Below, one piece after another: positions 18,902 to 31,500 of a stretch of DNA of 64,000 nt (its first letter is position 1; the number at the start of each line of letters is the position of its first letter). A program made the translations under genes and the position numbers. Source of the stretch: a virus. Lineage: Duplodnaviria > Caudoviricetes. The notes under the pieces are model-generated. The model saw only the letters and a list, made by a program, of their open reading frames with translations. It was not told where the DNA came from and searched no databases. The stretch lies in IMG/VR virus record IMGVR_UViG_3300007171_000004, positions 96,001 to 160,000 of that record; one strand, given 5' to 3'.

Positions 18902-19921
18902 ATGCCTCTTAATAATAACCTTTACGGTGTATATAAGACCCTCAGAATTGGTGGGACTTCGTACATCGTTGAAAATGCATCTAGAAATAGATCGATGGAA
19001 GTTAGCCCTAAGAGCTACGTCCAAGGAACTCCTCTTTCGGCTATCTTGGACATTGGTGGCGTAACAGAAGACATTTCGATCCAAGCTCCAATTCTTGTCG
19101 GTGGTGCTTCTGCTCATGACGGTAGATCGCTTGCTAATACAAAGATTACTGAAATTCTTTCTCCTTCGACAGCTACATTGCCATTGCTTCAAAATGCAAA
19201 CTTTAGAGTTTCTGAGGGTGGAGCTTCGGTTTCCATGTCTCTTATGTCTGATGGTTCGGCTGCATCTTCGCTTGCTGGTTACTTCCAGTTAGTCAATAGC
19301 CCAATTCCTGCTTTGAGCCCAGTTTCTGCTGGTGGTCCTACAAGAGTTGCAAGATTCTACGACTTCCGTGTAAACATCGGTGGTAGAACATTCTTCGTTA
19401 TTGAAGCGAACATTGAAGTCAAGTCCCAAGTTGACAAGAAGTACTTCCTCGTTCCTAATGCTACATCGACCAACATTATGGATGAAACCGGACAAGGTGA
19501 GCTTGTTACCATTCCTAATACAGGTGGTACACAATACTCCTTCGGTAACCAATTCCCATTTATTGGTATCACTGGTGTAGAAATCTCCGGTGGTGGTAAG
19601 GCTGCTGTTCTTTTACAAGACCTTAACTCTGACGGTGACTTCACTGACTATACCGCAGGTACAACTGATGAATCTATCAACCTTACCTACGGTATCAACG
19701 AGCCATCTTCTGGAGACCTTACACTTCAAATCCCTGGTGGAGCTGTTTATGAATCAGTTGCGTTCTCCTTTGAGATCTACAACCCATCAACTGATGCATG
19801 GGTCAGCCTTCTCCCATCACTCAACCTTACAAGATCGGTTATCAACAAGTCTAACTTCGAGATTACCAACGGTCTTCTTACTGTAGACTTCGGATTCACC
19901 TGCTGGGTTACCACAGCTTAG
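18902..19921 (+). CDS. Putative major tail tube or other major structural protein (339 aa), probably highly expressed
   Basis: Marked C-ending codon use (AAC, TTC, ATC, TAC) and visibly higher GC than neighbours. Many stop-free shadow frames. AGGTGG RBS. Paralogous to the upstream gene. Confidence 0.6.
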   Translation: MPLNNNLYGVYKTLRIGGTSYIVENASRNRSMEVSPKSYVQGTPLSAILDIGGVTEDISIQAPILVGGASAHDGRSLANTKITEILSPSTATLPLLQNANFRVSEGGASVSMSLMSDGSAASSLAGYFQLVNSPIPALSPVSAGGPTRVARFYDFRVNIGGRTFFVIEANIEVKSQVDKKYFLVPNATSTNIMDETGQGELVTIPNTGGTQYSFGNQFPFIGITGVEISGGGKAAVLLQDLNSDGDFTDYTAGTTDESINLTYGINEPSSGDLTLQIPGGAVYESVAFSFEIYNPSTDAWVSLLPSLNLTRSVINKSNFEITNGLLTVDFGFTCWVTTA

Positions 19922-20331
19922 TGATTTTTGCATAATTTACAAGATTCGCATAAACTTTTGTTTATCTTATATGAGTAAATTATCAAAATAGATCCTATAA
20001 CTAGTAACAAATTAAACACTAGGTTGCTCTTATTTATATGTTCATGTAATGTATGGATAAGAGCAACCATTCCAAACCCAACATAAAAATACAGAGATGC
20101 TTTGATTGATTTATGCCTTTTATATCCAAAGCACATAGTTAACAATCCTGAAATTCCTGATAACAACAATAAAATTAATTCAAGATTTTCATCTGCAAAC
20201 ATACTAATTCCCAATAAAGGCAAAAAGGTCATTAATATTGGCATCAATGTGCAGTGAATTGCACAAATAAAGGATGCAGAATATCCAAGCTTTTCAAATA
20301 AATTTATAAGAATACGATTTCCTGTGAACAT
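19918..20331 (-). CDS. merC: MerC-family membrane protein (137 aa)
   Basis: SASFICAIHC motif, four hydrophobic segments, GYKRHK loop and a Cys/His-rich tail CESCKLCKNH. Confidence 0.75.
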   Translation of the reverse strand: MFTGNRILINLFEKLGYSASFICAIHCTLMPILMTFLPLLGISMFADENLELILLLLSGISGLLTMCFGYKRHKSIKASLYFYVGFGMVALIHTLHEHINKSNLVFNLLLVIGSILIIYSYKINKSLCESCKLCKNH

Positions 20332-20893
20332 CTGTTAATCCATTTTCTATAATAGCTTGAATATGATCTTTAGTTAAATATCCCTTGTTTGATAAAAATT
20401 TGTAATTGGGATATTGTTCATCCAAATCTTTCATTAAGCGACACTGAATAACTTTAGCTACTATGCTTGCACATGCTACCACAAAACTAGTCGAATCGGC
20501 TTTAGGTAGCATGTGCATATTTTTTAAACTTATATCAGAAGCTTGATCTAAGATAAATAAATCTACTTTATGATATTTTAATACCTCTAAAGCAGATTCT
20601 TCTATAATATCTTTATTTGCCCGATTTATTCCATGTTTATCGATGAAATATTGATCACGAGTAGAAACATGAATCTTTATAGCCTTTTTTAAAATTTGCT
20701 CATATAATTCATCTCTTTTTTTCTCTGATAGTTTTTTAGAATCATTAACACCAGGGATAAAAACAGTAGAATCCATCAATACACATGCTGCAACAATACT
20801 ACCTGCACAAGATCCTCTACCACATTCATCTATACCAGCAATATATTCTCCATGAACGCTTCTTAAATCATCATCATAGTTTTTGAGTGACAT
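20294..20893 (-). CDS. rnhB: Ribonuclease HII; probable start MSLKN at 20893 (the track starts at 20917)
   Basis: IAGIDECGRG, ILD, KADSTS..VACASIVAKV, NKGY.T..H, HRKSY motifs. Confidence 0.92.
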   Translation of the reverse strand: MSLKNYDDDLRSVHGEYIAGIDECGRGSCAGSIVAACVLMDSTVFIPGVNDSKKLSEKKRDELYEQILKKAIKIHVSTRDQYFIDKHGINRANKDIIEESALEVLKYHKVDLFILDQASDISLKNMHMLPKADSTSFVVACASIVAKVIQCRLMKDLDEQYPNYKFLSNKGYLTKDHIQAIIENGLTDVHRKSYSYKFI

Positions 20894-22607
20894 GCTCTTT
20901 TGCCTTTTTGTAAACAATTTGACTATATTCTTTTATATCATCATTTGTAGATTCTAGCAAGCCGGTCAACATTTCAATATTATTAGACTCGCTAGATTCT
21001 TGAAGAGATTTTTTCATATCAGTTAAATCTTCTACTATATGTCGTGGCAATACATCTGTTCTCAACAATTCCTCAATCTGAATAATCCTGTCTGTCAATT
21101 GAGATTTAATGTTAGAAATTTCCAAGAATAATTTATCATCATTTTTATTATTTTCAGCTTCTTGGATTAGCTTTTGAATTTGGTCGCTTGTCAAAGATGA
21201 TGAACCTTCAAGAGTAAGATATTTTGAAATTCCAGAATCCTCATCTTTTGCCATAACTGAAAGAATACCATTAGAATCAATTTCAAATGTAACTTCGATT
21301 TTTGGCACACCTCTAGAAGCTTTTTTAATACCATCTAATGTAATCTTTCCCAATAAATGATTAAAAACTGCCTGTGGTCTTTCGCCTTGATAAATTGAGA
21401 CATCTACTTTTTCCTGATTATCAAAAGCTGTAGTAAATGTTTCTGTTACTTCTGCTGGAATTGATGAGTTTCTTTTAATCATAACATTCATCAAACCACC
21501 CTGAGTTTCAATTCCAAGAGATAAGGGAGTGACATCTACAAGAAAAATCACCTTATCACTATTTCCAGACAAAATATTTGCTTGAATAGCTGCTCCGATT
21601 GCCACAGCCTCATCTGGGTTAATAGACTTGTTAGGATTCTTGTTTGTCCATGCTTTTACAGATTCAGATATATATGGAACTCTAGTTGACCCACCTACAA
21701 AAACTACTTCATCAATATCATGAAACTTAAGACCAGCATCAAAAAGTGCTTGATCTACACATTTTTTAGTTTTATCAATTAAACTTTGAATTTTACCTTG
21801 AAACTCTTCCCTATTAATTGTTACTTTTAAATTAATTGGTTTGCCATCGATAAATTCATAATAAGGTATAGATACATTAGTTTCTGTTTTGAATGATAGT
21901 TCTTTTTTAGCTTTTTCTGCTGCATTTCTTAATCTAGGATCATTACTTTGATTAACACCATGTTTTTCTACAATTAGATCTACTAAACATTTATCAAAGT
22001 CATCGCCACCTAATTCTGTGTCACCTGAGGTACTTAAAACATGAAAATCCATTCCTTCAGCGATTTTAAGTACAGTAACATCAAAAGTTCCTCCGCCTAA
22101 ATCGTATACAAGAATAGTTTGATTAAGATTCTTATCTAAACCATAAGCAAGAGAAGCAGCTGTAGGTTCATTTATGATTCTGGAAACTCTAAGACCAGCT
22201 AATTCTGCAGCAACTTTAGTGGCTTTTCTTTGGTCATTATTAAAATATGCAGGAACGGTTATAACAGCAGAATCGATAGTGTCACCAATAAATGTTTCTG
22301 CATCTTTTTTAAGTTTTGATAAAATAAATGAGGAGATTTGCTCCGGTGAATATTCTTTATTATTTAGGACATATGTAAAATTTTTGCCCATATTTCTTTT
22401 AACAGATCTTATAGTTTCAGCTGGATTTTCATTTTCATTATCAACTGCAGAAAGACCAACTAAAATTTCTTGCCCGGCAAATGACACAACAGATGGAGTA
22501 GTGCGAAATCCTTCTTCATTTGTTAAAACTTGTGGATTACCGTTATTATCAATATAAGCTACTACAGAATTAGTTGTTCCTAAATCAATTCCTACTGTTA
22601 CTGGCAT
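20874..22607 (-). CDS. dnaK: Hsp70 chaperone DnaK (577 aa; short form without the subdomain IB insert or the C-terminal tail)
   Basis: GIDLGTTNS, AVITVPAYF, IINEPTAA, DLGGGTFD, LGGDDFD, VGGSTRVP, NPDEAVAIGAAIQ, DVTPLSLGIET. GAGG RBS. Confidence 0.97.
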   Translation of the reverse strand: MPVTVGIDLGTTNSVVAYIDNNGNPQVLTNEEGFRTTPSVVSFAGQEILVGLSAVDNENENPAETIRSVKRNMGKNFTYVLNNKEYSPEQISSFILSKLKKDAETFIGDTIDSAVITVPAYFNNDQRKATKVAAELAGLRVSRIINEPTAASLAYGLDKNLNQTILVYDLGGGTFDVTVLKIAEGMDFHVLSTSGDTELGGDDFDKCLVDLIVEKHGVNQSNDPRLRNAAEKAKKELSFKTETNVSIPYYEFIDGKPINLKVTINREEFQGKIQSLIDKTKKCVDQALFDAGLKFHDIDEVVFVGGSTRVPYISESVKAWTNKNPNKSINPDEAVAIGAAIQANILSGNSDKVIFLVDVTPLSLGIETQGGLMNVMIKRNSSIPAEVTETFTTAFDNQEKVDVSIYQGERPQAVFNHLLGKITLDGIKKASRGVPKIEVTFEIDSNGILSVMAKDEDSGISKYLTLEGSSSLTSDQIQKLIQEAENNKNDDKLFLEISNIKSQLTDRIIQIEELLRTDVLPRHIVEDLTDMKKSLQESSESNNIEMLTGLLESTNDDIKEYSQIVYKKAKEHVTQKL

Positions 22608-22633
22608 ATTAAACCTCTTTTAATATATTGTAC

Positions 22634-22649
22634 AGGATATTATATCTTA
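22634..22649 (-). promoter_or_regulatory. Promoter/operator motif TAAGATATAATATCCT upstream of dnaK (-10 box TATAAT at 22639-22644)
   Basis: Identical 16-mer also at 24682-24697 upstream of the helicase. Near-palindromic. Flanked by an 8 bp inverted repeat TATTGTAC (22626-22633) / GTACAATA (22656-22663). Confidence 0.65.
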
Positions 22650-22653
22650 GATT

Positions 22654-22662
22654 TGGTACAAT
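22654..22662 (+). promoter_or_regulatory. Extended -10 promoter candidate (TGgTACAAT) for the divergent sORF
   Basis: TG-n-TACAAT about 70 nt upstream of ATG 22732. No consensus -35. Confidence 0.5.
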
Positions 22663-22731
22663 AGATGAGGGTAATCACTGTAGATTCTCACTCCATATTG
22701 TTGTGGATATTAACATATAAAGGAGAAGGAT

Positions 22732-22803
22732 ATGAGAATCTTTAAAGACATGGAAAAAATGTTCGGTGAAGTGATTGATATGTTGTTTAAATTAGAGTTG
22801 TAA
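22732..22803 (+). CDS. Small ORF, 23 aa, MRIFKDMEKMFGEVIDMLFKLEL (not in the ORF track)
   Basis: Strong AAAGGAGAAGGA RBS directly upstream, candidate extended -10 promoter, terminator 4 nt after TAA, amphipathic helix pattern. Confidence 0.6.
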   Translation: MRIFKDMEKMFGEVIDMLFKLEL

Positions 22804-22807
22804 ATAC

Positions 22808-22837
22808 AAAAAGGAGCTTAACTTTAAGCTCCTTTTT
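22808..22837. terminator. Bidirectional intrinsic terminator between the sORF and the helicase
   Basis: AAAAAGGAGCTTA-ACTT-TAAGCTCCTTTTT, a perfect 13 bp inverted repeat with T/A tails on both sides. Confidence 0.92.
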
Positions 22838-22838
22838 C

Positions 22839-24680
22839 TTATTCAGCCTTTATGGGATAATATTGCCATGCTCTTTCATTCCTATAAACTCTTGCTCTTA
22901 AATTTGAATGAGTTTTAAGGTTTTTATGATTAACTTTAAAATCAACAATAATAGCATTAGGTTTTCCATTTTCAGCAGATTGTTTAGCATCCATACCTAC
23001 ACATCTCAAAACTCTTCCAACTTGCTGATACGTAGTGATTGGAGAACTGCTACTTCCTGCTAATATAAGAGCTGTAATTTTGGGAGCATCAACACCAACA
23101 TTTGCCCATTGAGTTGCTATAAGAATAATTTCATTGTTTTCAACTTTATTTAGCATCCTTCGGCGATAATTTTTCTCTTCATCTGATGGATCTAATTCCC
23201 CCTTATCCCCTCCTGGCACAAAAACTGCATTTTCAATAATCTCTTCTAAAAGATTACCATGCTCCATTCTTTCTACTAAAATAAGGGTCGGAGTACCATT
23301 ATCTTTAAATGTCTCAGCAAATTGTTTAATTCTATAGTTTCTTTCAGTGTTTTTGATTATATTAAGTTCATAAGCTTCTTGATATGTTTGAGCTTCGTGA
23401 TGTTCTTTAATTTCACATTGGAAGATTTTAGGTGGTACTAGAAAACCTCTTTCCACTAAATCACTTGCAGAAACTTCAATAATTTTTTGACCTAACGTAC
23501 CTTCAATTCGAATTTCTTGATTGTCAGTACGATAGGGAGTAGCTGAAAGTCCTCCACGAATAGTTGCATTTACAGCATATTTACCAATCTCTTCTATAAT
23601 AACAGATGCTATATGTGCCTCGTCAACAATATAAGCCTGACATGCAGTAACTAAATCTCTAATTTTGTTTTTATCTTCTGAAGTTGCCATTCTGTTTTGA
23701 TATACAGAATCTGCCTTTTTGAAGTTGTTATTTTGAAGTTTTATTAATGAGTCATATTTTCTCGAATATTCTTTAAGCTTTAGATCTAAATCTTTTTGAG
23801 CTTTATTTAATATTCTTTGATTTTTAGTATCCAAATTATCCTGAAATAAATTAGTTAGTTCTTCAAATTTAGCTTGTAATGAATCAATTTCTAACTGAAG
23901 ACTTTTAAGTTGGTTTTTAGCACTTCTCTTAGCAATAGAAAGATCTTTAAGTGCTTTCTCATATTCTTCTTCGATTTGAGCATTTGATTTCCTAACACCA
24001 TCTGAAGGAGCTATGTCAACAACCTTGTATTGACTTTCAACATACTTCTTATCATATGCGCCTAAAACTGTTTGATAAGTTACTACGTTTATGCCTTCCA
24101 TGTTTAAATCACAAATGCTATCACCTGCGATTCCAACTTTTACTGGTTTTCCATCTAACCTTAAGTACTTTTCAAATTCTTTTTTAGTTTGTTTGAGAAG
24201 TTCAAGAGCTGGAACTACAAAAATAACTGGAGCAACTTTAAGCTTTGAAAAAATATAACAAGAAGTCATAGTTTTACCAGCACCAGTAGCTAATGAAAGT
24301 ATGCCACCATTTTGCTTATAAAACTCATCTCCTGCTTTGATTTGATAATCTCTTAATGTCTTTGGACCAAAATCACAAGTAAATGGGTAATTTCGTTGAA
24401 TATCGGGCCTTTTATCGACCGTTTCAAATTCAACATTAAGATTCTGCAATAGATTCTTGACTTTTGGATATAAACCTATTGGAAATGTGCCGAATTTCTT
24501 GTTGTAAAGTGATATTTTGCCATCCCATTGTCCAAGTTTATATTTTGGACTCCAATCGGCATTTGGTTGTATATAAGATAATTCATCTCTTATTACAGAA
24601 TGTAGGCTATATAAAACATGAGGGTCAGATAGATTAAAGTCTATCTGACACCTTTCATTAAATAAGTTTATTACTATCAC
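22839..24680 (-). CDS. Superfamily 2 DEAH helicase (UvsW/XPB-like) with a long coiled-coil insertion
   Basis: TLRDYQ (Q motif), LATGAGKT (Walker A), IVDEAH (motif II), LSATPYR (III), QQVGRVLR (VI). GTG start. Confidence 0.9.
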   Translation of the reverse strand: MIVINLFNERCQIDFNLSDPHVLYSLHSVIRDELSYIQPNADWSPKYKLGQWDGKISLYNKKFGTFPIGLYPKVKNLLQNLNVEFETVDKRPDIQRNYPFTCDFGPKTLRDYQIKAGDEFYKQNGGILSLATGAGKTMTSCYIFSKLKVAPVIFVVPALELLKQTKKEFEKYLRLDGKPVKVGIAGDSICDLNMEGINVVTYQTVLGAYDKKYVESQYKVVDIAPSDGVRKSNAQIEEEYEKALKDLSIAKRSAKNQLKSLQLEIDSLQAKFEELTNLFQDNLDTKNQRILNKAQKDLDLKLKEYSRKYDSLIKLQNNNFKKADSVYQNRMATSEDKNKIRDLVTACQAYIVDEAHIASVIIEEIGKYAVNATIRGGLSATPYRTDNQEIRIEGTLGQKIIEVSASDLVERGFLVPPKIFQCEIKEHHEAQTYQEAYELNIIKNTERNYRIKQFAETFKDNGTPTLILVERMEHGNLLEEIIENAVFVPGGDKGELDPSDEEKNYRRRMLNKVENNEIILIATQWANVGVDAPKITALILAGSSSSPITTYQQVGRVLRCVGMDAKQSAENGKPNAIIVDFKVNHKNLKTHSNLRARVYRNERAWQYYPIKAE

Positions 24681-24681
24681 G

Positions 24682-24697
24682 AGGATATTATATCTTA
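24682..24697 (-). promoter_or_regulatory. Promoter motif TAAGATATAATATCCT placing the start site at the GTG (probable leaderless mRNA)
   Basis: TATAAT (24687-24692) ends 6 nt before the GTG at 24680. No SD present. Identical to the motif upstream of dnaK. Confidence 0.65.
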
Positions 24698-24704
24698 TAG
24701 TTCT

Positions 24705-25148
24705 TTATGCTGCAAATTTCATAATTCCAATTTGAACATCTCTACTAGATTTATTCTCAATCATTCCAAGAGTTGTGACAATCAAATCTTTAACAATTTC
24801 ATATTCAGAATCAGAGAGTTCAATATTATTCTTGCTTGCTACAATCTTAATAAATCTAAGAAATGAATCAGCTTTATCATTTTCATCAAAAGTGCCGTCA
24901 ACACAAGATTTTAAACCCTCTGCCCAAGCATCAATAATAATAACTGCTTTTGGCCCTAATTGAGCCGCTAATACACTTTTGACAATTAATAGAGCTTTAT
25001 AAACAAAATCACTTTCTCTTGTAAATCTTCTTGCAATGTGAGGAGCCAAAATAATTACCAGAGCTGTGCAAATTAATAAAGTTAAATGTTCTTGAACCGC
25101 ATGTAGTAATAGTTGCTTAATTTTTAAAGCAGTGAATAGTTGAGACAT
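24705..25148 (-). CDS. Hypothetical membrane-anchored protein (147 aa)
   Basis: One hydrophobic segment LTLLICTALVIILAPHI followed by RR. AAGGA RBS. Confidence 0.6.
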   Translation of the reverse strand: MSQLFTALKIKQLLLHAVQEHLTLLICTALVIILAPHIARRFTRESDFVYKALLIVKSVLAAQLGPKAVIIIDAWAEGLKSCVDGTFDENDKADSFLRFIKIVASKNNIELSDSEYEIVKDLIVTTLGMIENKSSRDVQIGIMKFAA

Positions 25149-25149
25149 T

Positions 25150-25365
25150 CTAGCAATCCTTAGCGATTACATCATCTCCTGTATCGGATGCTTCTGGGTC
25201 AAGAAATACATCAGCAACGACAGGAATTTCCAAAACATCCTTTACTACAATAGATTGAGCTTCAGGCGCATCGGTGGTCTCTTCAACTTCCGACGCTTGT
25301 ACTTCTTCACCTTCTACATCTGTAAACTGTTCAATTCTTCCGGTAGCACGTTTAATCATAGACAT
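25150..25365 (-). CDS. Hypothetical small acidic protein (71 aa)
   Basis: AGGAG RBS. D/E-rich. Coupled between dnaJ and the 147 aa gene. Confidence 0.65.
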   Translation of the reverse strand: MSMIKRATGRIEQFTDVEGEEVQASEVEETTDAPEAQSIVVKDVLEIPVVADVFLDPEASDTGDDVIAKDC

Positions 25366-25376
25366 TGTTTTTTCTC

Positions 25377-26378
25377 CTATTTTAAAGTAGACACATAATT
25401 TTGCAAGATATCTTTTTGTTCTTGAGACAGATTCTTAGGTGTTTTATACACTACATTAATTACGAAATCTGTTCTTGCGTTCTCATTCTTAAATAAGCCC
25501 TTTTGAGATAAATTAAACTTTTGACCATTAGTAGTATATTCTTTCATTTTAATTGTAGTTTTACCGCCTTCAGGCAAATCAACTTCAACATCTTTACCTA
25601 ATATTGCTACTACTGGATCAATTTCAAAATCAAGTTTTACATTACCATTTCTATCAAATTCAAAATGTCCAACATCTGTAAGTTCAAAATCTATAATTAC
25701 TGGTCCAGGATCAATTGTTCTATTCTCTTGATTACCCTTACCTTTAATAAATTGAGAATTGAAAATCGATCCTTTTTTAACTTCTATTTCAATTGTTTCT
25801 GAAACTAATTTTAAGCCAGAAGAATTACAATCAGAACAATTTGATGTATATCTAGAACCTTTGCCTTGACAAGAACCGCAAGGAGTAATGAATTGCTGTG
25901 TAAACATACCTTGGCGGATTTGCTTAACTACATTTCCTGCACCATTGCATTCTTTACAAGTAATTTTTTCTCCTAAACCACCATTGCCATTACACTTCAC
26001 GCAAAAAACATTTCTATTAAATGTGACATTTTTTTTGAAATTTTTGAAAGATTCTGCTAATGTAATGTTAACTCTAATAGAAACTGGAGAATTTTCCATC
26101 CTATTCTGTCTCTGATGCCCGAAGGGATTAAAGTCAAAATCAAATCCAAATGGCATTCCTCCTCCAAAAGGACTACCATGCTGCTCTGCTTCATACCTAG
26201 CTTTTTTCTGAGGATCTGTCAAAATAGAATAAGCCTCACCTATTTGCTTGAATTTATCTTCAGCATCGGGAGACTTATTAACATCTGGATGATATTCTCT
26301 AGCTAATTTACGATAAGCTGATTTAATTTCATCAGCTGTAGCATTTTCATTTAAACCAAGAACTTCATATGGATTCAT
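25377..26378 (-). CDS. dnaJ: Type I (class A) J-domain co-chaperone DnaJ
   Basis: NPYEVLG...AYRKLAREYHPDVN J-domain, G/F-rich linker, four CxxCxGxG-type motifs (CVKCNGNG, CKECNGAG, CGSCQGKG, CSDCNSSG), and a C-terminal client-binding domain. Confidence 0.96.
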   Translation of the reverse strand: MNPYEVLGLNENATADEIKSAYRKLAREYHPDVNKSPDAEDKFKQIGEAYSILTDPQKKARYEAEQHGSPFGGGMPFGFDFDFNPFGHQRQNRMENSPVSIRVNITLAESFKNFKKNVTFNRNVFCVKCNGNGGLGEKITCKECNGAGNVVKQIRQGMFTQQFITPCGSCQGKGSRYTSNCSDCNSSGLKLVSETIEIEVKKGSIFNSQFIKGKGNQENRTIDPGPVIIDFELTDVGHFEFDRNGNVKLDFEIDPVVAILGKDVEVDLPEGGKTTIKMKEYTTNGQKFNLSQKGLFKNENARTDFVINVVYKTPKNLSQEQKDILQNYVSTLK

Positions 26379-26386
26379 GTATGTTA

Positions 26387-27064
26387 TTATACATTAATTT
26401 TTTGCAGCAAAGATTTAATTTTATTGGATGGGCATACTGAATTTTCACCAATAGCAATATCTGCATGTTCGCCTGTAACACCAATAACTAAGCCGTAAAC
26501 CAATCCATCTGTACCAATAACCATACCACCAGAGATACCTTGCAAAATATCAGCATCAATAAAAATTAAATCTGACCAAGCTGGAGAATCTGCATTTCGA
26601 ACCGTTTGATGAATATTAGAAATTCTACCAACAGTTGCAGTATCATGCCATCCCTCTGGCGATCCAATAGCTGCAATAATATCTCCTACTTCAGCAGTGT
26701 CAGAATCTGCTAAACTGACTGCTGTGACAGAATCTGGAATATCTTCGCAATAAAGAATCGCTACGTCTAGATTTGGCTGGGAATCAATTACTCTTGCTCC
26801 AAATGAATTTTTACCATCAAAACTAACTTGCAACCCCATGTAATTATTAATAAGTTTAGGAGGAGCAACGTGTGATGCTGTAGCAATTAACCCATTGCCA
26901 ATATGAAATCCACTACCAGTCCATTGCTCTTTACCATCTTTAACAAAAATTGTACATGATGCTGCAATTGCATTTTGGATGACAATCTTAATTGGATCAT
27001 CAACTTTATTTTGAGCTTCTCTTAAGAACATCTCAACCATATTTGCATCTAAACGTAGCGACAT
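26387..27064 (-). CDS. Trypsin-like (S1/HtrA-type) serine protease without PDZ domain or signal peptide
   Basis: GSGFHIG..LIATASHV (His), DVAIL (Asp), AIGSPEG, IFIDADILQGISGG (Ser). Confidence 0.88.
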   Translation of the reverse strand: MSLRLDANMVEMFLREAQNKVDDPIKIVIQNAIAASCTIFVKDGKEQWTGSGFHIGNGLIATASHVAPPKLINNYMGLQVSFDGKNSFGARVIDSQPNLDVAILYCEDIPDSVTAVSLADSDTAEVGDIIAAIGSPEGWHDTATVGRISNIHQTVRNADSPAWSDLIFIDADILQGISGGMVIGTDGLVYGLVIGVTGEHADIAIGENSVCPSNKIKSLLQKINV

Positions 27065-27068
27065 AAAT

Positions 27069-27533
27069 TTAATACCCTAGAATTTTATACTCAATCTCAT
27101 CAAATGTCAAAGTGCCAAATCTTCTTGAATCATCAGAATGAAATGTGTTATCACCCAAAACATAATAATGATTTTTTGGAACTCTTGTAATTGTCAATAA
27201 AGAACCATAGACTTTTTTAAACTCTAATAATTCTTTTGTGTCGTAGCCTTCAAGTAAAATAGCGTTTGTATTTTCTAAGTCAAGCAAAGAAGCATAACTA
27301 TCTCCACCTACATACTTGACTCTTTTTATAATCGCATCTTCACCCTCTAGATTACAAACAACAATATCATTTTTCTTGATATCTTTAGTTTTATAACCAA
27401 TTAATATTTGACCATGATGAAGAGTGGGATACATCGAATTGCCTCTTACAACAATTACTCTGAATGGCCTGTAGTATATTAATAACAAACAAGCCAAACT
27501 CAATACCGTAGTCAAAATAAATTTAAGCTTCAT
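27069..27533 (-). CDS. lepB: Signal peptidase I (S26)
   Basis: N-terminal TM anchor, VRGNSMYPTL (catalytic Ser), IIKRV (catalytic Lys), GDN..HSDDSRRFG. Confidence 0.92.
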   Translation of the reverse strand: MKLKFILTTVLSLACLLLIYYRPFRVIVVRGNSMYPTLHHGQILIGYKTKDIKKNDIVVCNLEGEDAIIKRVKYVGGDSYASLLDLENTNAILLEGYDTKELLEFKKVYGSLLTITRVPKNHYYVLGDNTFHSDDSRRFGTLTFDEIEYKILGY

Positions 27534-27534
27534 A

Positions 27535-27565
27535 GTCCTCTCCTTTTATGCGTGTAGAGAAGGAC
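27535..27565 (-). promoter_or_regulatory. Hairpin able to sequester the signal peptidase RBS
   Basis: On the - strand GTCCTTCTC...GAGAGGAC pairs over the AAGGAGAGGA SD, with a one-base bulge. Confidence 0.5.
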
Positions 27566-27584
27566 ATTTTTGTTTTTTAAGCCC

Positions 27585-28499
27585 TTAATTAAATTTCATA
27601 TTAGCGTATTTAGGGACACCAAATCCCCAATCACCAGTTCTTCCAACTGTGATGTTTTGAGATTCTAATGAAGAAATATCATCTAATCTCTGAAGCATAT
27701 CCTTATAATCACAAATAGGCTTCAAGTTTGGATTTTTTCTTGTCCATGCTAACATCAACGCACAGACTCCAGCAATAAATGGACAAGCTTGTGATGTGCC
27801 ATTTAATTTAGCATATCCATTGTCCTTATAAGTTGAATAAATATCTACTCCAGGAGCAATCGCATCCACTTCTGGACCATGACTTGAAAAATGCGCCATG
27901 TTCCCTCTAGCATCTAAAGCAGCAACTGCAATCACTTCTTCAAATCTAGCTGGATAATTTACAGCTCCAGCGTCATTGCCAGCAGCAGCAATCATAATTA
28001 CCCCAGCATCTGCAGCTCTCTTAATAGCAGTATAGAGTTCTGGAGGAGCAGAAGATGCACCCAAAGACATGCTGATAATATCCACATTGCAATCTACAGC
28101 AGCATTAATTCCAGCAATAATATTATCATAAGATCCATTACCACCATTACCCAAAACCTTGACTGGAAGAATTTTTGCTTTAGGAGCTACACCAACAACG
28201 CCAAAATCATTATTAGCTGCTGCAATGATTCCAGCACAGTGAGTTCCGTGGCCATTCCAGTCCTTATCATCTGATTCACCTGAAAAATTTAAAGCTGGCA
28301 ATAGATTATCTCTTAAATCGGAGTGGTTCCATACACCAGTGTCGAGAACAGCAATTGTAATACCATCGCCCTCAGTATAAGCCCAAGCACCAGGAATATT
28401 GGATTGCATCAAGCCCCAGTCTGTAGTTTGACTGAGAGTTTGCATCACATGAATCGGTTGCATCTCAATATCTGGAATAAACTGAATTTCTTTATCCAT
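27585..28499 (-). CDS. Subtilisin-like serine protease (S8), 304 aa, no signal peptide, very short pro-region
   Basis: IAVLDTG (Asp), HGTHCAG (His), AAAGND (oxyanion Asn), GTSQACP (Ser). GGAG RBS. Confidence 0.95.
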   Translation of the reverse strand: MDKEIQFIPDIEMQPIHVMQTLSQTTDWGLMQSNIPGAWAYTEGDGITIAVLDTGVWNHSDLRDNLLPALNFSGESDDKDWNGHGTHCAGIIAAANNDFGVVGVAPKAKILPVKVLGNGGNGSYDNIIAGINAAVDCNVDIISMSLGASSAPPELYTAIKRAADAGVIMIAAAGNDAGAVNYPARFEEVIAVAALDARGNMAHFSSHGPEVDAIAPGVDIYSTYKDNGYAKLNGTSQACPFIAGVCALMLAWTRKNPNLKPICDYKDMLQRLDDISSLESQNITVGRTGDWGFGVPKYANMKFN

Positions 28500-28556
28500 T
28501 TTTAGTCTCCAATTGTTTACTAATTATTTATTCTTGAAACCTAACCAGAATAACTT

Positions 28557-31500
28557 TTAAGAAACTGTAATATCTTCTGATCTTACAGGGTCGCCATACA
28601 TAGATCCGTCATAAGGTTTAACTATAAATGAAATTGTTTTGCCCTTTACAACTAAATTAGATGGAAGAGTTGCTTTAGTTGATATTGGCTGAAGTTCATC
28701 ATTGTAATACCAAGAAATACTGTTGGTAGATTCTTGTCCTTCGTAAATAATATTAGAGCTTCCAGTTTCACCATCATTAAATATAAATCTAGCTTTCAAT
28801 TCTGTGCCTTCTGTAACATAATTGACTCCACTAACTGTTGTCTTATTGGCGCATGCTATACTAACGTCATAAACATAAGGTCTTTTGGTTCCTAATAATG
28901 TAGCAATATTTGATTCATAAGGAATTCCAGTTGTAATTCCGTCAGAAGGTCTTACAATTACTTTAACTTTATCGGTGGAAATAAATAATGAATTTAAGTC
29001 GCTTAATTTTTGGACAGTTCTGTTATCGTAATTTGGCATTGAATTTGAAGCATTAACTCTTAAATATGCACCATTTGATCTTGATCTGTACCATTCTGTC
29101 TTAGTGTCTAATTCTTTATTGTTGTCTACTGAAACATATTTATATTCAATGTAGAGTCTTTCACTTACATTAGGAATAGATGGCAATAATTGTAATGTTC
29201 CAGGATAGATTGTTGGACTAGGAGAATTTGCAAAAGAATTCTCAAGATCTGAATTAGTTATTGTAGTATATGTTAATCCAAACTGTATCAACCCTAAAGA
29301 AACATTAGTGTAGTTTTTGATTTGAATACCAACTCTAAATTTATCTGACGGAGCAACATACACAGTAATCTTATCCGAATCATTTTGTTCCTGTGTGAAA
29401 GTAATTGTTCCTGATTCTCTATTTACAAAGTATCCACCACGAACAATAGAATTATTTTTAAGAACAATAATCGTTGAATCACTTGGATATCTACCATTAC
29501 TTAAATAATAAGTCCTGTTATCAATAGTAGTAGTTAATTCACCATTCAATTTATAAACTTCAGATGGTGTAGTTATGTCAACTGTTACAACTACTGTAGA
29601 TGGCTTTTCAGTACTAAAATAAATCAAACCATTTACATTATCAAGAGAATAATAACCATCACTGTCTGAAGTAGCAATACCATCTAATCTAATAGTGACA
29701 ATATCAGTAGAAGACCATTTGGCCTTTGACCCATTAACTTCATATACTTGATAAATAAAATAATCTGAAGTTTTTGTTGAAAGTCCAGTTTTGCTTACTT
29801 CATCTGTGAACAAAATCGATTCTTGTCTGTTAGGCAATACGCCATTTCTTCTGGAGATAATTGGTGAATAATCAGCCCAATCTAAAGAATCACCTCTACA
29901 AATTCCCCATGATAATTTAGCAGTTTCTGGGATTGAACTCTTTGGCGATAAAATATATTCAAACATAGATCCATTTATGTTCTGTGGATAAGTAAAGATA
30001 TAACTTGTTGATGGATTGATTATGACATGATAAAGTTCAGTTACAAATGGCTTAACAGGAGCAGACCCATTCCATCCATCAGCAAGAGTGACTTTATATT
30101 CAATTGCTAATATTTCTCTATTAATTAAGCTGTCAACATTATTAGTTAAAGTAATCCAGGAACTATAGCTTCTTCTATCGCTTGAATATCTATACTGTAT
30201 GATGCAGGAACTATTAACTGTTGAAAGAGGAGCAGTAAATGCACTATAAACTTTCGATACATAAGTCAAACTTTCATAATCAAATTTACGTGTCCATGAT
30301 GCTTTGAAAAGATTATTTGATCCGCCATGTAAGAAAGAATCAAATGTTGTGTCAAAATCCTGAGCATTGGCATCTGTAGAAATATGAATAAATTTTCCTC
30401 TAGATGTTCCAATTGTCTGAAGATCTTTGTTGAGGTTTGATTTACCTAACAAGAAACTATAAACATTTACTCCAAGATCATTCCAAGATGATTCAGCGGT
30501 TGTAACAATTTCATCAGCAGTATATTCTGATATATTTTTACCATCAGCAAAAATAGTTGAGAATGGAATATAAGAATTAGCCCATTTACTAACAAAATAA
30601 GTTCTAATATTCTCTGATGATTTGATAGTATTTATTTGACCATCCCAATCTGATCTTATAACAACCTTTAGAATATCTGTCAAAAGAAGAGGCGTAGAGA
30701 ATGTAATTTGACCTAAAGAGGGATTAATACTAAATCCTGATGATTGAACAATATTATTTACACTTACTTCGATATATGGATAAGTTGCAGTTGACCATGT
30801 AAAAGTGTCAATTCCATTCAAAGAAAGAGTGATTGGATTTACGTTTAACGCAGTTTTTGGAATTAAAGTTTCTTGATAATCTGATTGTGCATACCAAGAT
30901 TTCAATTCATCTAATCCAAGAGCATTAATAGAATTCAAATAATCTACAATTGCTCCAACTCTTATCTGATTATTTGCCTCATCATCAACTTTTAAAATAG
31001 ATTCAACAATTGCTTCAGGATTCATAGAAGTAATTGAAGCATTAACAGACTCTAATAATGTACTACTAATACCATTTTGCCTGAGAGCTGATACGTTAGA
31101 TTTTAATTGAGTTCTATTGTTGATAAATCCATTTGTTCTATCTTGCAACTTATTATTGAAAACATATTGAGATGTGTATGTTTTAGGGAATAAAGTTGAA
31201 ACTACTGTAGAATCTGTGCGATCATAAATTCTATCAATAAATCCATTAATTTCAGCCTCAAAATTAGATGTTCCAAATGCATTAAGAATAGAATATGAAT
31301 CATCAATCACCATAGACATTGCAAATTTAAAGTCGGTAGTTAAGTATCCACTATCATTTACAATAACACCTAAACTATCACCAAGAAGCCAATTGTTTAT
31401 ATTAAGCGAATTATTTCTTCCAGCAACCTCAATTGTTTCAGAATATTGATTTGTCCCTGTGAAATTAACTTTAAAATAGAAATCATCACCTGAATTTAAG

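What the first reader, a model, noticed from the sequence alone, without database searches (positions are those of the whole stretch)
20874..28499. Phage-encoded protein-maturation module: three different serine proteases in tandem plus DnaJ and DnaK, directly after the giant virion genes
Seen: S8 subtilase, S26 signal peptidase I and S1 trypsin-like protease genes are consecutive and have intact catalytic residues. A complete class A DnaJ follows 8 nt later and DnaK about 2.8 kb further on, all co-oriented behind about 35 kb of 1000-2900 aa beta-rich structural genes. There is no grpE, hrcA or CIRCE, so this is not a cellular dnaK operon. The S8 and S1 enzymes lack signal peptides, implying cytoplasmic substrates. 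Inference: a dedicated folding and processing line for giant fibre/baseplate proteins, or a way to degrade host defence proteins. I do not know this combination as a described unit.
Basis: partly seen in the sequence, partly recalled or inferred. Interest (0 to 1): 0.72.

Follow-up and report, generated by a model that had tools for sequence, protein, structure and literature searches.

The report
Conserved protease–chaperone block of huge phages
An uncultured group of very large water-borne phages keeps a fixed set of its own protein-cutting enzymes and protein-folding helpers (DnaJ, DnaK), which looks like a general protein-care kit and not a special finishing line for the giant tail proteins next to it.

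Summary
On the minus strand, S8 (27585-28499), S26 (27069-27533), S1 (26387-27064), class A DnaJ (25377-26378) and DnaK (20874-22607) are intact. They follow 35 kb of giant virion-type genes, with no GrpE or CIRCE. The genome is a 300-kb phage with its own portal and head protease.

About 20 distinct relatives (39 loci fetched; S1 50-62% identical) keep the same order. Four much more distant relatives (S1 36-43%) still keep S8-S1 ... DnaJ, and two of them the helicase. Only L049 reaches DnaK. They lack the giant genes and S26.

The block has three units:
- A tightly coupled operon: S8-S26-S1-DnaJ-orf71-orf147.
- A UvsW-type helicase.
- DnaK-RNase HII-MerC.

S8 resembles intracellular subtilisins with an inhibitory N-terminal peptide. 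S26 is a true membrane-anchored signal peptidase I, so it cannot act on cytoplasmic virion proteins. It lies 95 kb away in one relative. S1 is a PDZ-less HtrA-type protease. Its N-terminal leader ends in the [KR]-x-A|Q motif found on other leader-tagged proteins of this phage.

My reading is a phage-owned proteostasis set, not a fibre-specific line (confidence 0.5). Function is inferred, not shown.

The scan found the same operon before on another genome (e1-5361629), with a similar verdict.

The parts
28557..37241 (-). 2894-aa giant virion-type protein directly upstream (context, not part of the module)
   Evidence: ORF. PHROG hits to a tail-fibre/virion-protein domain. Homologues at 26-43% identity precede S8 in most of the closer relatives. 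In L012, L014 and L015 several small genes intervene, and the distant relatives lack it.
27585..28499 (-). S8 subtilase, 304 aa, of the intracellular (ISP-like) type: no signal peptide, no I9 prodomain, short N-terminal extension with a conserved F-[IL]-P motif
   Evidence: Pfam PF00082, E 8e-57. Triad D53/H85/S236. Best PDB match is an intracellular serine protease, 7y6m. The N-terminal motif is conserved in 23 relatives, and reads L-F-P-Y in distant L049. Single copy in 5 of 5 genomes.
27069..27533 (-). S26 signal peptidase I, 154 aa, with an N-terminal membrane anchor (residues 5-19) and a Ser33/Lys70 dyad
   Evidence: Pfam PF10502. NCBIfam TIGR02227 scores 77.5 bits against a cut-off of 47. 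Anchor and catalytic boxes are conserved in 21 sequences. PDB relatives are SpsB-type enzymes. It is relocated in relative G001.
26387..27064 (-). S1 (HtrA-type, PDZ-less) serine protease, 225 aa
   Evidence: Pfam Trypsin_2. A profile search hits HtrA/DegP structures at E 8e-23. H65/D100/S178 are invariant. AF2 model has pLDDT 85. The family has 475 hits at E<=0.001 among the word-matched candidates, the best 120 all at least 51% identical, but only 14 clusters at 50% identity with E<=1e-30.
27014..27064 (-). N-terminal leader of S1 (residues 1-17): a helix ending R-E-A|Q18, the phage's recurrent [KR]-x-A|Q motif
   Evidence: Q18 is nearly invariant and a variable linker follows it. The model shows helix 7-17 followed by a loop. 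[KR]xAQ is 4.9-fold enriched in the first 40 residues of the proteome. L036 and L038 S1 proteins start just after this site. An A-Q site is kept in distant homologues.
25377..26378 (-). Class A (type I) DnaJ, 333 aa
   Evidence: Pfam J domain, CXXCXGXG and DnaJ_C. HPD and 8 Cys are invariant in 19 sequences. It scores below the NCBIfam equivalog cut-off, 236 against 377.
25150..25365 (-). orf71: conserved acidic 71-aa protein that always follows DnaJ. Some relatives have a Zn ribbon in the middle
   Evidence: Alignment of 19 sequences. Zn-ribbon forms occur in L012, L014, L015 and L018, and in distant L051 and L052. No Pfam or PHROG hit.
24705..25148 (-). orf147: single-pass membrane protein with a helical C-terminal domain, weakly like LL-H holins
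   Evidence: TM segment and conservation. AF2 pLDDT 87, all-helical. Weak but repeated PF09682 signals. It is absent together with S26 from the operon in L036 and L038.
24682..24697 (-). 16-nt element containing TATAAT, directly before the helicase start. An identical copy lies before dnaK
   Evidence: The core G-A-T-A-T-A-A-T-A-T-C occurs only twice in the 300-kb genome, and both copies are here.
22839..24680 (-). UvsW-type superfamily 2 helicase, 613 aa
   Evidence: Pfam ResIII, UvsW_N and Helicase_C. PHROG DNA helicase. In relatives a hairpin, a -10 box and a near-leaderless start precede it.
22634..22649 (-). Second copy of the 16-nt promoter-like element, before dnaK
   Evidence: Relatives have TGTA[TC]AAT close to the dnaK start.
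20874..22607 (-). DnaK (Hsp70), 577 aa
   Evidence: Pfam HSP70, 592 bits. NCBIfam PRK00290 scores 649.7 against a cut-off of 648. At most about 50% identical to any DnaK in the phage collection.
20294..20917 (-). RNase HII, overlapping the dnaK end. Present in about half of the relatives
   Evidence: Pfam PF01351. Presence and absence across relatives.
19918..20331 (-). MerC-family membrane protein, last gene of the dnaK unit
   Evidence: Pfam PF03203. Conserved in relatives.

Best explanation
This is a vertically inherited gene block of an uncultured group of huge aquatic phages (about 300-420 kb). It supplies the infected cell with phage-owned protein-homeostasis functions. It is not one assembly line.

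The old core, in order:
- Two cytoplasmic serine proteases, each made in a latent form. One is an ISP-like subtilase blocked by its own N-terminal F-[IL]-P peptide. The other is a PDZ-less HtrA-type protease with a removable N-terminal leader.
- A class A DnaJ with a small acidic or Zn-ribbon partner ORF.
- A UvsW-type helicase.
- DnaK.

Inferred mechanism:
- DnaJ hands newly made phage proteins to the phage DnaK. The proteome is dominated by very large beta-rich proteins. DnaK cycles without a phage GrpE, using the host's GrpE or none.
- The two proteases carry out regulated cytoplasmic proteolysis, either quality control or turnover.

In the crown clade, which includes this window, two membrane proteins were inserted into the operon. 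One is a genuine signal peptidase I, which serves exported proteins at the outer face of the cytoplasmic membrane. The other is a holin-LLH-like protein.

Shown: gene identity, catalytic integrity, operon structure and deep conservation. Inferred: every functional statement.
For: 1. Identity and integrity of all five enzymes.
2. It is a phage. The record is an IMG/VR virus record with a portal and head maturation protease elsewhere in the genome. The three proteases are therefore extra to the canonical head protease.
3. The order is collinear in about 20 distinct relatives. Gaps are tiny or overlapping: S26/S1 is -4 to +4 nt, DnaJ/orf71 is -4 nt, and orf71/orf147 overlap.
4. Four distant relatives (S1 36-43% identical) keep S8 then S1 then DnaJ. 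The helicase follows in L049 and L051, and only L049 reaches DnaK. Their neighbours differ. L049 and L050 have peptide deformylase and Thg1 between S1 and DnaJ, and L049 also has IF3 between DnaJ and the helicase. These also act on translation or nascent proteins.
5. All family assignments point to protein care. ISPs do regulated intracellular proteolysis and are held inactive by an N-terminal LIPY/F peptide (PMC6220982). HtrA proteases do protein quality control (established knowledge). DnaJ and DnaK are a folding pair.
6. GrpE is absent from six genomes of the clade. The Hsp70 pair is therefore kept as a two-part set.
7. S26 remains in the genome when it leaves the operon (G001). It is useful on its own and not physically tied to S8 or S1.
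Against: - There is no expression, localisation or activity data. The one metatranscriptome that holds pieces is contigs only, and DNA carry-over cannot be excluded.
- The whole neighbourhood is collinear in the crown clade. Synteny there could be mere inheritance.
- The helicase, RNase HII and MerC within the block have nothing to do with proteostasis.
- The S1 leader carries the phage's head-type cleavage motif. This hints at a virion-linked role instead of, or beside, cytoplasmic quality control.
- HtrA-type enzymes normally work outside the cytoplasm and with PDZ domains. This one meets neither condition.
- DnaJ scores well below the curated DnaJ cut-off. It may have a narrower, specialised client range.
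Confidence: 0.5

Rival explanations
1. The block is a dedicated folding and trimming line for the giant fibre or baseplate proteins encoded just upstream.
For: The block has the same strand as the 2894-aa gene and lies 57 nt from it, with no terminator-like site between them. Homologues of that giant gene precede S8 in most of the closer relatives. Very large beta-rich proteins are plausible Hsp70 clients (inference).
Against: - S26 acts on the far side of the membrane.
- In L012, L014 and L015 six small genes separate the giant gene from S8.
- In distant relatives the block sits beside methylases, sugar-metabolism and DNA-metabolism genes, not structural genes.
- The giant proteins of the window carry none of the phage's recurrent cleavage motifs.
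- DnaK has its own promoter element, shared with the helicase.
Confidence: 0.1
2. The S1 protease is a virion-linked enzyme. Its leader marks it for loading into the prohead and trimming by the head protease, like the other leader-tagged proteins. It would then act inside the head or be ejected into the next host. A variant of this idea is that S1 itself cuts the [KR]-x-A|Q sites.
For: - The leader is a helix ending in [KR]-x-[AGS]|Q, with Q18 nearly invariant and a variable linker after it.
- Only 12 of 247 proteins have [KR]xAQ in their first 40 residues. That is a 4.9-fold enrichment over the rest of the proteome.
- An A-Q site is kept before the protease domain in homologues down to 34% identity.
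- In the one subclade whose S1 starts right after that site, the complete genome G001 has no M-W-Y-[KR]-x-A starts. Four other genomes have 8, 8, 8 and 3, and the reversed-pattern controls give none.
- HtrA enzymes prefer small aliphatic P1 residues (established knowledge). Self-cleavage is therefore chemically plausible.
Against: - There are no virion proteomics data.
- The motif is short.
- A separate assemblin-like head protease with seven such motifs in its own polyprotein is the more natural cutter.
- S1 is kept, with its triad intact, in the subclade without leaders. Its core job therefore does not depend on the leader system.
- S1 is encoded far from the head genes.
Confidence: 0.25
3. 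Host takeover or counter-defence. The two cytoplasmic proteases destroy host proteins, either defence systems or bulk protein for amino acids. The phage J-protein and Hsp70 pair rewires host chaperone-dependent regulation.
For: - In distant relatives the neighbours are early or middle-type genes: helicase, topoisomerase, thymidylate synthase and methylases.
- The moraphage paper cites two precedents. A J-domain protein of phage RB43 acts on host DnaK and sigma-32. DnaJ is needed for sensing by the defence protein bNACHT25 (cited in PMC12619734).
- Many Bacillus phages carry ISP-like S8 genes of unknown role.
Against: - No host target is known.
- No match of any module protein to a known defence or anti-defence family was sought or seen beyond a faint S8 hit to IteS.
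- Latent, zymogen-like designs fit timed activation but do not point to host targets.
Confidence: 0.15
4. DnaJ and DnaK serve DNA replication. They would remodel the helicase or an initiator, as host DnaK and DnaJ do for lambda P-DnaB and P1 RepA. The proteases would be unrelated passengers.
For: - The helicase and dnaK carry an identical 16-nt promoter element found nowhere else in the genome.
- DnaJ then helicase is kept in distant L049 and L051, and L049 reaches DnaK.
- RNase HII follows dnaK.
- Chaperone-driven replication initiation is established for lambda and P1 (established knowledge).
Against: - A UvsW-type helicase is a recombination and repair helicase, not a replicative DnaB-type helicase that needs unloading.
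- The S8-S1 pair is linked at least as tightly as the helicase.
- Peptide deformylase, Thg1 and IF3 in the same block of distant relatives point to protein synthesis, not replication.
Confidence: 0.07
5. An envelope, export or lysis function. The signal peptidase, the holin-like orf147 and the proteases would act together on the cell envelope or export the leaderless proteases.
For: - Two membrane proteins (S26 and orf147) sit in the operon. They are present or absent from it together, although this reflects one evolutionary event.
- orf147 gives weak, repeated LL-H holin signals.
- The phage encodes exported proteins with classic signal peptides.
Against: - All holin signals are below significance.
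- No endolysin was seen nearby. Pfam or PHROGs named no lysis enzyme among the neighbours tested.
- Distant relatives have S8, S1 and DnaJ without S26.
- S26 works from another locus in G001.
Confidence: 0.05

Closest known systems
Intracellular subtilisin proteases (ISPs) of Bacillus and Planococcus (MEROPS S8A), and their uncharacterised copies in large Bacillus phages
   Same: - Size of about 300 aa, with no signal peptide and no I9 prodomain.
- Full Asp-His-Ser triad.
- A short N-terminal extension with a hydrophobic-hydrophobic-Pro motif near residue 7.
- The best solved match is an intracellular serine protease.
- Phage copies exist in SPO1-like and other Bacillus phages at about 40% identity.
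   Different: - The motif is F-[IL]-P-[DE], not [LVI]-[IFLV]-P-[YFH]. Only distant L049 fits the published pattern (PMC6220982).
- The catalytic Ser sits in G-T-S-Q-A, not G-T-S-M-A.
- It is always paired with an HtrA-type protease gene.
Bacterial type I signal peptidase (SpsB/SipS type, TIGR02227)
   Same: - One N-terminal membrane anchor.
- Ser/Lys dyad boxes.
- Passes the curated family cut-off.
   Different: - It is encoded by a phage, and at 154 aa is at the short end of the family.
- No close homologue turned up in 50,697 GenBank phage records, apart from short, probably host-derived fragments.
- Only one PHROG of unknown function matched its C-terminus.
HtrA/DegP/DegS quality-control proteases (MEROPS S1C)
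   Same: Chymotrypsin-fold protease domain with His-Asp-Ser. The best profile matches are HtrA structures.
   Different: - No PDZ domain.
- No signal peptide or membrane anchor.
- A cleavable-looking helical leader ending [KR]-x-A|Q.
- Scores far below every curated HtrA family cut-off.
Phage-encoded DnaK and DnaJ of 'moraphages', Lak megaphages and other huge phages from metagenomes
   Same: Full-length Hsp70 and class A DnaJ in phages of more than 200 kb. The moraphage paper reports that some of its freshwater phages encode DnaK and DnaJ (PMC12619734).
   Different: - This clade has no family B polymerase, a marker gene used to place the moraphages.
- Here DnaK and DnaJ are core genes in fixed order with S8, S1 and a helicase.
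- In moraphages only 8 of 25 genomes have DnaK, and seven of those fall within Flavobacteriaceae (PMC12619734).
- The huge phages in GenBank that have DnaK and DnaJ gave no S8 or S1 hits.
Phage morphogenetic chaperones and J-proteins (T4 gp31 and gp57A; RB43 Rki J-domain protein)
   Same: Phage-coded helpers that bend the host folding machinery to phage needs (established knowledge; RB43 as cited in PMC12619734).
   Different: Those are single co-chaperones that depend on host GroEL or DnaK. Here the phage brings both the Hsp70 and its J-protein, plus proteases.
T4 capsid-targeting sequences and prohead-protease propeptides
   Same: A short N-terminal leader on unrelated proteins that ends at a protease motif. 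The S1 protease of this block carries such a leader.
   Different: - The motif here is [KR]-x-A|Q, closer to the A|S sites of herpesvirus assemblin than to T4's L/I-x-E sites. This comparison is from my own knowledge.
- Cleavage and capsid loading are not shown.

Membership tests
Intracellular subtilisin protease (ISP, S8A) | Asp-His-Ser triad and oxyanion Asn in a Peptidase_S8 domain | tested here: met
   PF00082, E 8e-57. D53, H85, S236 and N175 are conserved in 23 sequences.
Intracellular subtilisin protease (ISP, S8A) | No signal peptide and no I9 prodomain; a short N-terminal extension instead | tested here: met
   No hydrophobic N-terminus. The catalytic domain starts at about residue 44.
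Intracellular subtilisin protease (ISP, S8A) | LIPY/F motif [LVI]-[IFLV]-P-[YFH] near residues 6-9 (PMC6220982) | tested here: inconclusive
   The window has F-I-P-D at residues 7-10. Relatives have F-[IL]-P-[DEIK]. Only distant L049 has L-F-P-Y.
Intracellular subtilisin protease (ISP, S8A) | Removal of the pro-peptide activates the enzyme; dimeric state | not testable with these tools
   Needs enzyme assays.
Signal peptidase I (S26A, TIGR02227) | Score above the curated equivalog cut-off | tested here: met
   77.5 bits against a cut-off of 47.
Signal peptidase I (S26A, TIGR02227) | Ser/Lys dyad boxes (S-M-x-P; K-R; G-D-N...S-x-D-S-R) | tested here: met
   Conserved in all 21 aligned sequences.
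Signal peptidase I (S26A, TIGR02227) | N-terminal membrane anchor placing the catalytic domain outside the cytoplasm | tested here: met
   Hydrophobic segment at residues 5-19 after Lys residues, conserved in relatives. The topology itself is inferred.
Signal peptidase I (S26A, TIGR02227) | Cleaves Sec signal peptides | not testable with these tools
   Candidate phage substrates with A-x-A-like sites exist, but they are less conserved than S26.
HtrA/DegP family (S1C) | Chymotrypsin-fold domain with His-Asp-Ser | tested here: met
HtrA/DegP family (S1C) | One or two C-terminal PDZ domains | tested here: not met
   The 225-aa protein is filled by the protease domain. It scores far below all curated cut-offs.
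HtrA/DegP family (S1C) | Export signal or membrane anchor | tested here: not met
   The N-terminus is an amphipathic, charged helix.
Class A (type I) DnaJ | J domain with HPD, G/F linker, four CxxCxGxG motifs, C-terminal domains | tested here: met
   Pfam finds three domains. HPD and 8 Cys are invariant. The G/F stretch is short here and reduced in many relatives.
Class A (type I) DnaJ | Score above the curated bacterial DnaJ equivalog cut-off | tested here: not met
   236 bits against 377 for TIGR02349. It has the architecture of DnaJ but is a divergent member.
DnaK (Hsp70) | Full nucleotide-binding and substrate-binding domains; curated cut-off | tested here: inconclusive
   HSP70 scores 592 bits over the full length. 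PRK00290 scores 649.7 against 648, just met. TIGR02350 scores 618 against 822.6, not met.
Cellular dnaK operon (hrcA-grpE-dnaK-dnaJ with CIRCE) | grpE next to dnaK; CIRCE operator | tested here: not met
   No GrpE in six genomes. No CIRCE in the window. hrcA was not searched.
LL-H holin family (PF09682), for orf147 | Significant profile match | tested here: not met
   Best E is 0.04, in 2 of 17 members. Feature score is 0.90 to a cluster where 26% of members carry PF09682. Structure TM is 0.46/0.58. The architecture fits, with an N-terminal TM segment and a helical tail.
Moraphages (PMC12619734) | Family B DNA polymerase, one of the marker genes used to place the lineage | tested here: not met
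   No PF00136 match in five genomes of this clade. Contig names of relatives do not match the paper's Table 1.
Leader-tagged (head-cargo-like) proteins of this phage, for S1 | N-terminal leader ending in [KR]-x-A|Q | tested here: met
Leader-tagged (head-cargo-like) proteins of this phage, for S1 | Cleavage at the motif and presence in virions | not testable with these tools
   Needs proteomics.

The most novel reading that the evidence does not exclude
The HtrA-type S1 protease is made as a leader-tagged zymogen that the head protease trims and loads into the capsid. These huge phages would then deliver an active serine protease into the next host together with the DNA. Alternatively, head maturation would switch on a two-protease S1-to-S8 cascade in the cytoplasm. 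The GrpE-less DnaJ/DnaK pair would be an old, phage-adapted Hsp70 system inherited with it.
Probability: 0.15. Interest if true: 0.8.

Novelty: new variant of a known kind. Interest (0 to 1): 0.55.

Why it matters
Phage chaperones and phage proteases are each known. I found no description of a fixed, deeply conserved set of two latent cytoplasmic proteases, a full DnaJ and a DnaK without GrpE.

If the set works as a phage-owned proteostasis system, huge phages would replace another core cell function, beside translation and transcription parts.

It also offers three things to study:
- A naturally minimal Hsp70 system.
- A very short signal peptidase I of viral origin.
- A PDZ-less HtrA enzyme.

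The link between the S1 leader and the phage's cleavage motif gives a concrete, testable bridge between this block and capsid maturation.

Tried and rejected
- Binding of DnaJ and orf71: the complex prediction gave no verdict, score 0.00 against a mark of 0.32. This is no evidence either way.
- Sigma-70 promoter and terminator scans of 19800-28700 found no more sites than shuffled sequence. A 7-mer enrichment search upstream of genes gave only Shine-Dalgarno-like and extended -10-like words and no class-specific promoter. Timing of expression therefore stays unknown.
- RNA evidence: all runs are stored as contigs. Two runs labelled RNA are probably DNA. One metatranscriptome holds short pieces of several genes of the block. 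This does not show transcription.
- Pfam terminase (PF17289) and T4-type prohead protease (PF03420) models found nothing in the genome. The PF03420 control also found nothing, so that search says nothing. PHROGs then found the portal and head protease.
- orf71 has no match in Pfam, PHROGs or the protein atlas.
- orf147: structural searches gave only weak matches.
- Signal peptidase as cutter of the [KR]-x-A|Q leaders: considered and rejected. The leaders have no hydrophobic core and carry Lys or Arg at -3, which type I signal peptidases disfavour (established knowledge).
- Membership in the moraphage lineage: rejected.
- Host assignment: not settled. Signal peptides with Gln at +1 fit the Bacteroidetes Q-rule (PMC5837995). 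A DUF1559 prepilin-type gene is of a kind that, to my knowledge, is expanded in Planctomycetota and Verrucomicrobiota.
- Phylogenies against cellular homologues were not made. No tool gave me named cellular sequences in ranked order.

Full report
**What is there**

The window is bases 96001-160000 of a single 300,536-bp contig that IMG/VR holds as a virus record, 84% complete by CheckV. GC content is 33% and 94% of the contig is coding under table 11. My own check found a portal (phrog_16240) and, next to it, a head maturation protease domain (phrog_18299, E 1e-17) at genome 189-196 kb. The element is therefore a tailed phage with a canonical head protease of its own.

On the minus strand of the window the genes run in this order:
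- a 2894-aa protein
- S8 (304 aa)
- S26 (154 aa)
- S1 (225 aa)
- DnaJ (333 aa)
- a 71-aa ORF
- a 147-aa ORF
- a UvsW-type helicase (613 aa)
- DnaK (577 aa)
- RNase HII
- MerC

The 35 kb upstream holds co-oriented genes of 317-2894 aa. Two of them carry a domain shared with tail-fibre and virion proteins.

**The enzymes look functional**

- S8 has D53, H85 and S236, with no signal peptide and no prodomain.
- S26 has a Lys-flanked hydrophobic anchor (residues 5-19) and the Ser and Lys boxes. It passes the curated signal peptidase I cut-off, 77.5 against 47 bits.
- S1 has H65, D100 and S178, invariant in 50 sequences. It matches HtrA structures best but has no PDZ domain.
- DnaJ has HPD, a short G/F stretch, four invariant Cys pairs and the C-terminal domains. 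It scores below the curated DnaJ cut-off.
- DnaK is full length and just reaches one curated DnaK cut-off.
- GrpE is absent from this genome and from five relatives, two of them 99-100% complete. No CIRCE is present.

**Conservation in the crown clade**

The S1 protein has 475 hits at E<=0.001 among the word-matched candidates. The best 120 are all about 220-240 aa and 51-96% identical, on contigs of up to 421 kb. In the four ENA look-ups and the IMG/VR scan (24 loci), every contig long enough shows the same order: giant gene, S8, S26, S1, DnaJ, orf71, orf147, helicase, DnaK, (RNase HII), MerC.

Identities to the window:

| Protein | Identity (%) |
|---|---|
| S1 | 50-62 |
| S8 | 40-57 |
| DnaK | 45-57 |
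| Helicase | 39-65 |
| S26 | 28-40 |
| DnaJ | 31-39 |

The GenBank phage collection has no close S1 or S26 homologue, so this clade has no sequenced isolate. It is also not the recently named moraphage lineage. No family B polymerase is found in five genomes, and contig names do not match that paper's table (PMC12619734).

**Transcription units**

Gene spacing in the window and in relatives shows one tight operon from S8 to orf147:
- S26 and S1 are 4 nt apart here and overlap by 4 nt in most relatives.
- DnaJ and orf71 overlap by 4 nt in most relatives.
- orf71 and orf147 overlap or abut.

In most relatives a hairpin with a T-run follows orf147. Then come a TATAAT-like box and the helicase start a few bases later. 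dnaK has a TGTA[TC]AAT box close to its start. In this phage the helicase and dnaK are each preceded by an identical 16-nt element whose 11-nt core occurs nowhere else in the genome. DnaK is therefore regulated with the helicase, not with the proteases. I found no terminator between the giant gene and S8 and no recognisable promoter. Timing of the protease operon is unknown.

**Deeper relatives give the most informative result**

A search of 1.8 billion cluster representatives found only 14 clusters of this S1 family at E<=1e-30. I read the surroundings of six of the more distant ones. Four, with S1 36-43% identical, lay on contigs long enough to show neighbours.

| Locus | Gene order |
|---|---|
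| L049 | S8, three ORFs, S1, Thg1, peptide deformylase, DnaJ, IF3, helicase, DnaK |
| L050 | S8 (with an intein), two ORFs, S1, Thg1, peptide deformylase, DnaJ |
| L051 | S8 overlapping S1, topoisomerase, methylase, thymidylate synthase, DnaJ, a Zn-ribbon ORF, helicase |
| L052 | S8, S1, several ORFs, DNA methylase, DnaJ, a Zn-ribbon ORF homologous to orf71 |

None has S26 in the locus, and none has giant structural genes upstream. Three conclusions follow:
- The old core is the S8-S1 pair, then DnaJ with a small partner ORF, then the helicase (seen in two) and DnaK (seen in one).
- S26 and orf147 are later insertions.
- The position behind the giant genes is a feature of the crown clade only.

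In the complete genome G001 (the L038 subclade), S26 has left the operon but remains 95 kb away. There it sits beside sigma factors, an exported protein and ClpP.

**What each part suggests**

S8 resembles intracellular subtilisins:
- Its best solved match is one.
- All relatives keep a hydrophobic-[IL]-Pro motif at residues 7-9 of a short N-terminal extension.
- In ISPs the LIPY/F peptide lies across the active site and inhibits it (PMC6220982).
- The phage motif fits the published pattern only in L049, which has L-F-P-Y. I therefore call S8 ISP-like, not an ISP.

S26 is a real signal peptidase I, and the phage has plausible substrates. Three small proteins carry classic signal peptides with Gln at +1. 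These are less conserved than S26 itself.

orf147 is a single-pass membrane protein. It gives repeated but sub-threshold likeness to LL-H holins.

orf71 is acidic, with conserved ends and a Zn ribbon in some lineages.

**The S1 leader**

The first 17 residues of S1 form a helix that ends R-E-A, followed by Gln18.
- Across the family the site reads [KR]-x-[AGS]|Q. A linker of variable length follows.
- The same ending closes the N-terminal leaders of other proteins of this phage, both the M-W-Y-[KR]-x-A type and longer helical ones.
- [KR]xAQ occurs in the first 40 residues of 12 of 247 proteins, 4.9 times its density elsewhere.
- The head protease polyprotein has seven [KR]-[TIVL]-A-[QSA] sites. 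The giant proteins of the window have none.
- Distant S1 homologues keep an A-Q site shortly before the protease domain.
- In L036 and L038 the S1 protein begins just after this site. G001, the complete genome of L038, has no M-W-Y-[KR]-x-A starts. Four other genomes have 8, 8, 8 and 3, and reversed-pattern controls give none.

I read this as follows. S1 is probably processed at this site, and is more likely a substrate of the leader system than its enzyme. S1 survives intact where the leaders are gone. Other agents of this scan proposed the motif and the leaders. I re-tested the enrichment and the distribution, but not cleavage.

**Interpretation**

Every assignable gene of the old core acts on proteins: two latent proteases, a J-protein and an Hsp70. 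In two distant relatives the same stretch also holds peptide deformylase and Thg1, and in one of them IF3. That is why I favour a phage-owned proteostasis set (confidence 0.5).

- the topology of S26
- the separate control of dnaK
- the loss of the structural neighbourhood in distant relatives
- the lack of motifs in the giant proteins

Roles in host takeover, in replication with the helicase, or at the envelope cannot be excluded and are listed as rivals. A virion-linked role of S1 may hold alongside any of them.

**Prior knowledge and novelty**

DnaJ is sporadic in cultured jumbo phages (PMC7824862). I found DnaK and DnaJ genes in Lak megaphages and other huge metagenomic phages, and the moraphage paper reports them in some of its genomes (PMC12619734). 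The huge GenBank phages that have them gave no S8 or S1 hits. My literature searches found no description of the S8-S1-DnaJ-DnaK linkage or of a phage signal peptidase I.

The same operon was noted earlier in this scan on another genome (e1-5361629), with a similar verdict. This report adds the deep conservation, the secondary insertion of S26 and orf147, and the S1 leader.

Noticed in passing
genome 22603-23028 (+), 33686-34159 (-), 34156-34488 (-); L040:7013-7456 (+): Small phage proteins with classic Sec signal peptides, all with Gln right after the predicted cut (A-F-A|Q, S-F-A|Q, V-F-S|Q, A-P-A|Q). This is the pattern called the Bacteroidetes Q-rule (PMC5837995) and hints at a Bacteroidota host. 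The 157-aa protein is conserved in two relatives at 58-61% identity.
   Followed up: partly
genome 268177-269145 (-) (L045): A 322-aa protein with a prepilin-type N-terminal methylation motif plus DUF1559 (PF07963, PF07596). To my knowledge this family is expanded in Planctomycetota and Verrucomicrobiota. It conflicts with the Bacteroidota host hint.
   Followed up: partly
genome 294202-294627 (-) (L046); G001:324810-325346; G003:206392-206925: A ClpP-like protease gene in 3 of 5 genomes of the clade. This is a further serine protease beside S8, S26, S1 and the head protease. In G001 it lies 2 kb from the relocated S26.
   Followed up: partly
L009:13002-16085; L050:6399-8870: Inteins interrupt genes of the block in relatives. 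The UvsW-type helicase is 1027 aa with an Intein_splicing hit in L009, L010 and L011. The S8 gene is 823 aa with intein and LAGLIDADG hits in L050.
   Followed up: no
window 22634-22649 and 24682-24697 (-): An identical 16-nt element with a TATAAT core lies before dnaK and before the helicase, and its core occurs nowhere else in the 300-kb genome. In most relatives the helicase and dnaK starts lie only 6-10 nt after a -10-like box, so the mRNAs may be leaderless.
   Followed up: partly
window 27792-27806 (-) (S8 residues 232-236 region): The catalytic Ser of S8 sits in G-T-S-Q-A in almost all of the crown-clade relatives. The usual subtilisin motif G-T-S-M-A is kept only in L036 and L038.
   Followed up: no
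G001 (genome of L038), whole record: The complete 347-kb relative has no M-W-Y-[KR]-x-A protein starts, against 8 in this genome. Its S1 has no leader, and its operon lacks S26 and orf147. IMG/VR labels this record a provirus.
   Followed up: partly
L049:8871-9581: In a distant relative, a 236-aa ORF between S8 and S1 starts M-W-L-K-L-A. It resembles the six-residue leader seen on many proteins of this phage.
   Followed up: no
L012:11735-11971, L014:11764-12000, L015:11743-11985, L018:11794-12018, L052:6650-6805: The small ORF after DnaJ keeps its N-terminus (M-x-M-[IV]-[KR]-R) and mostly its acidic C-terminus. It carries a four-Cys Zn ribbon in some lineages and none in others, including this window.
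   Followed up: partly
window 20000-29500: Near-identical DNA (about half of the sampled words) is present in estuary, reservoir and other aquatic metagenomes from at least nine studies.
   Followed up: partly
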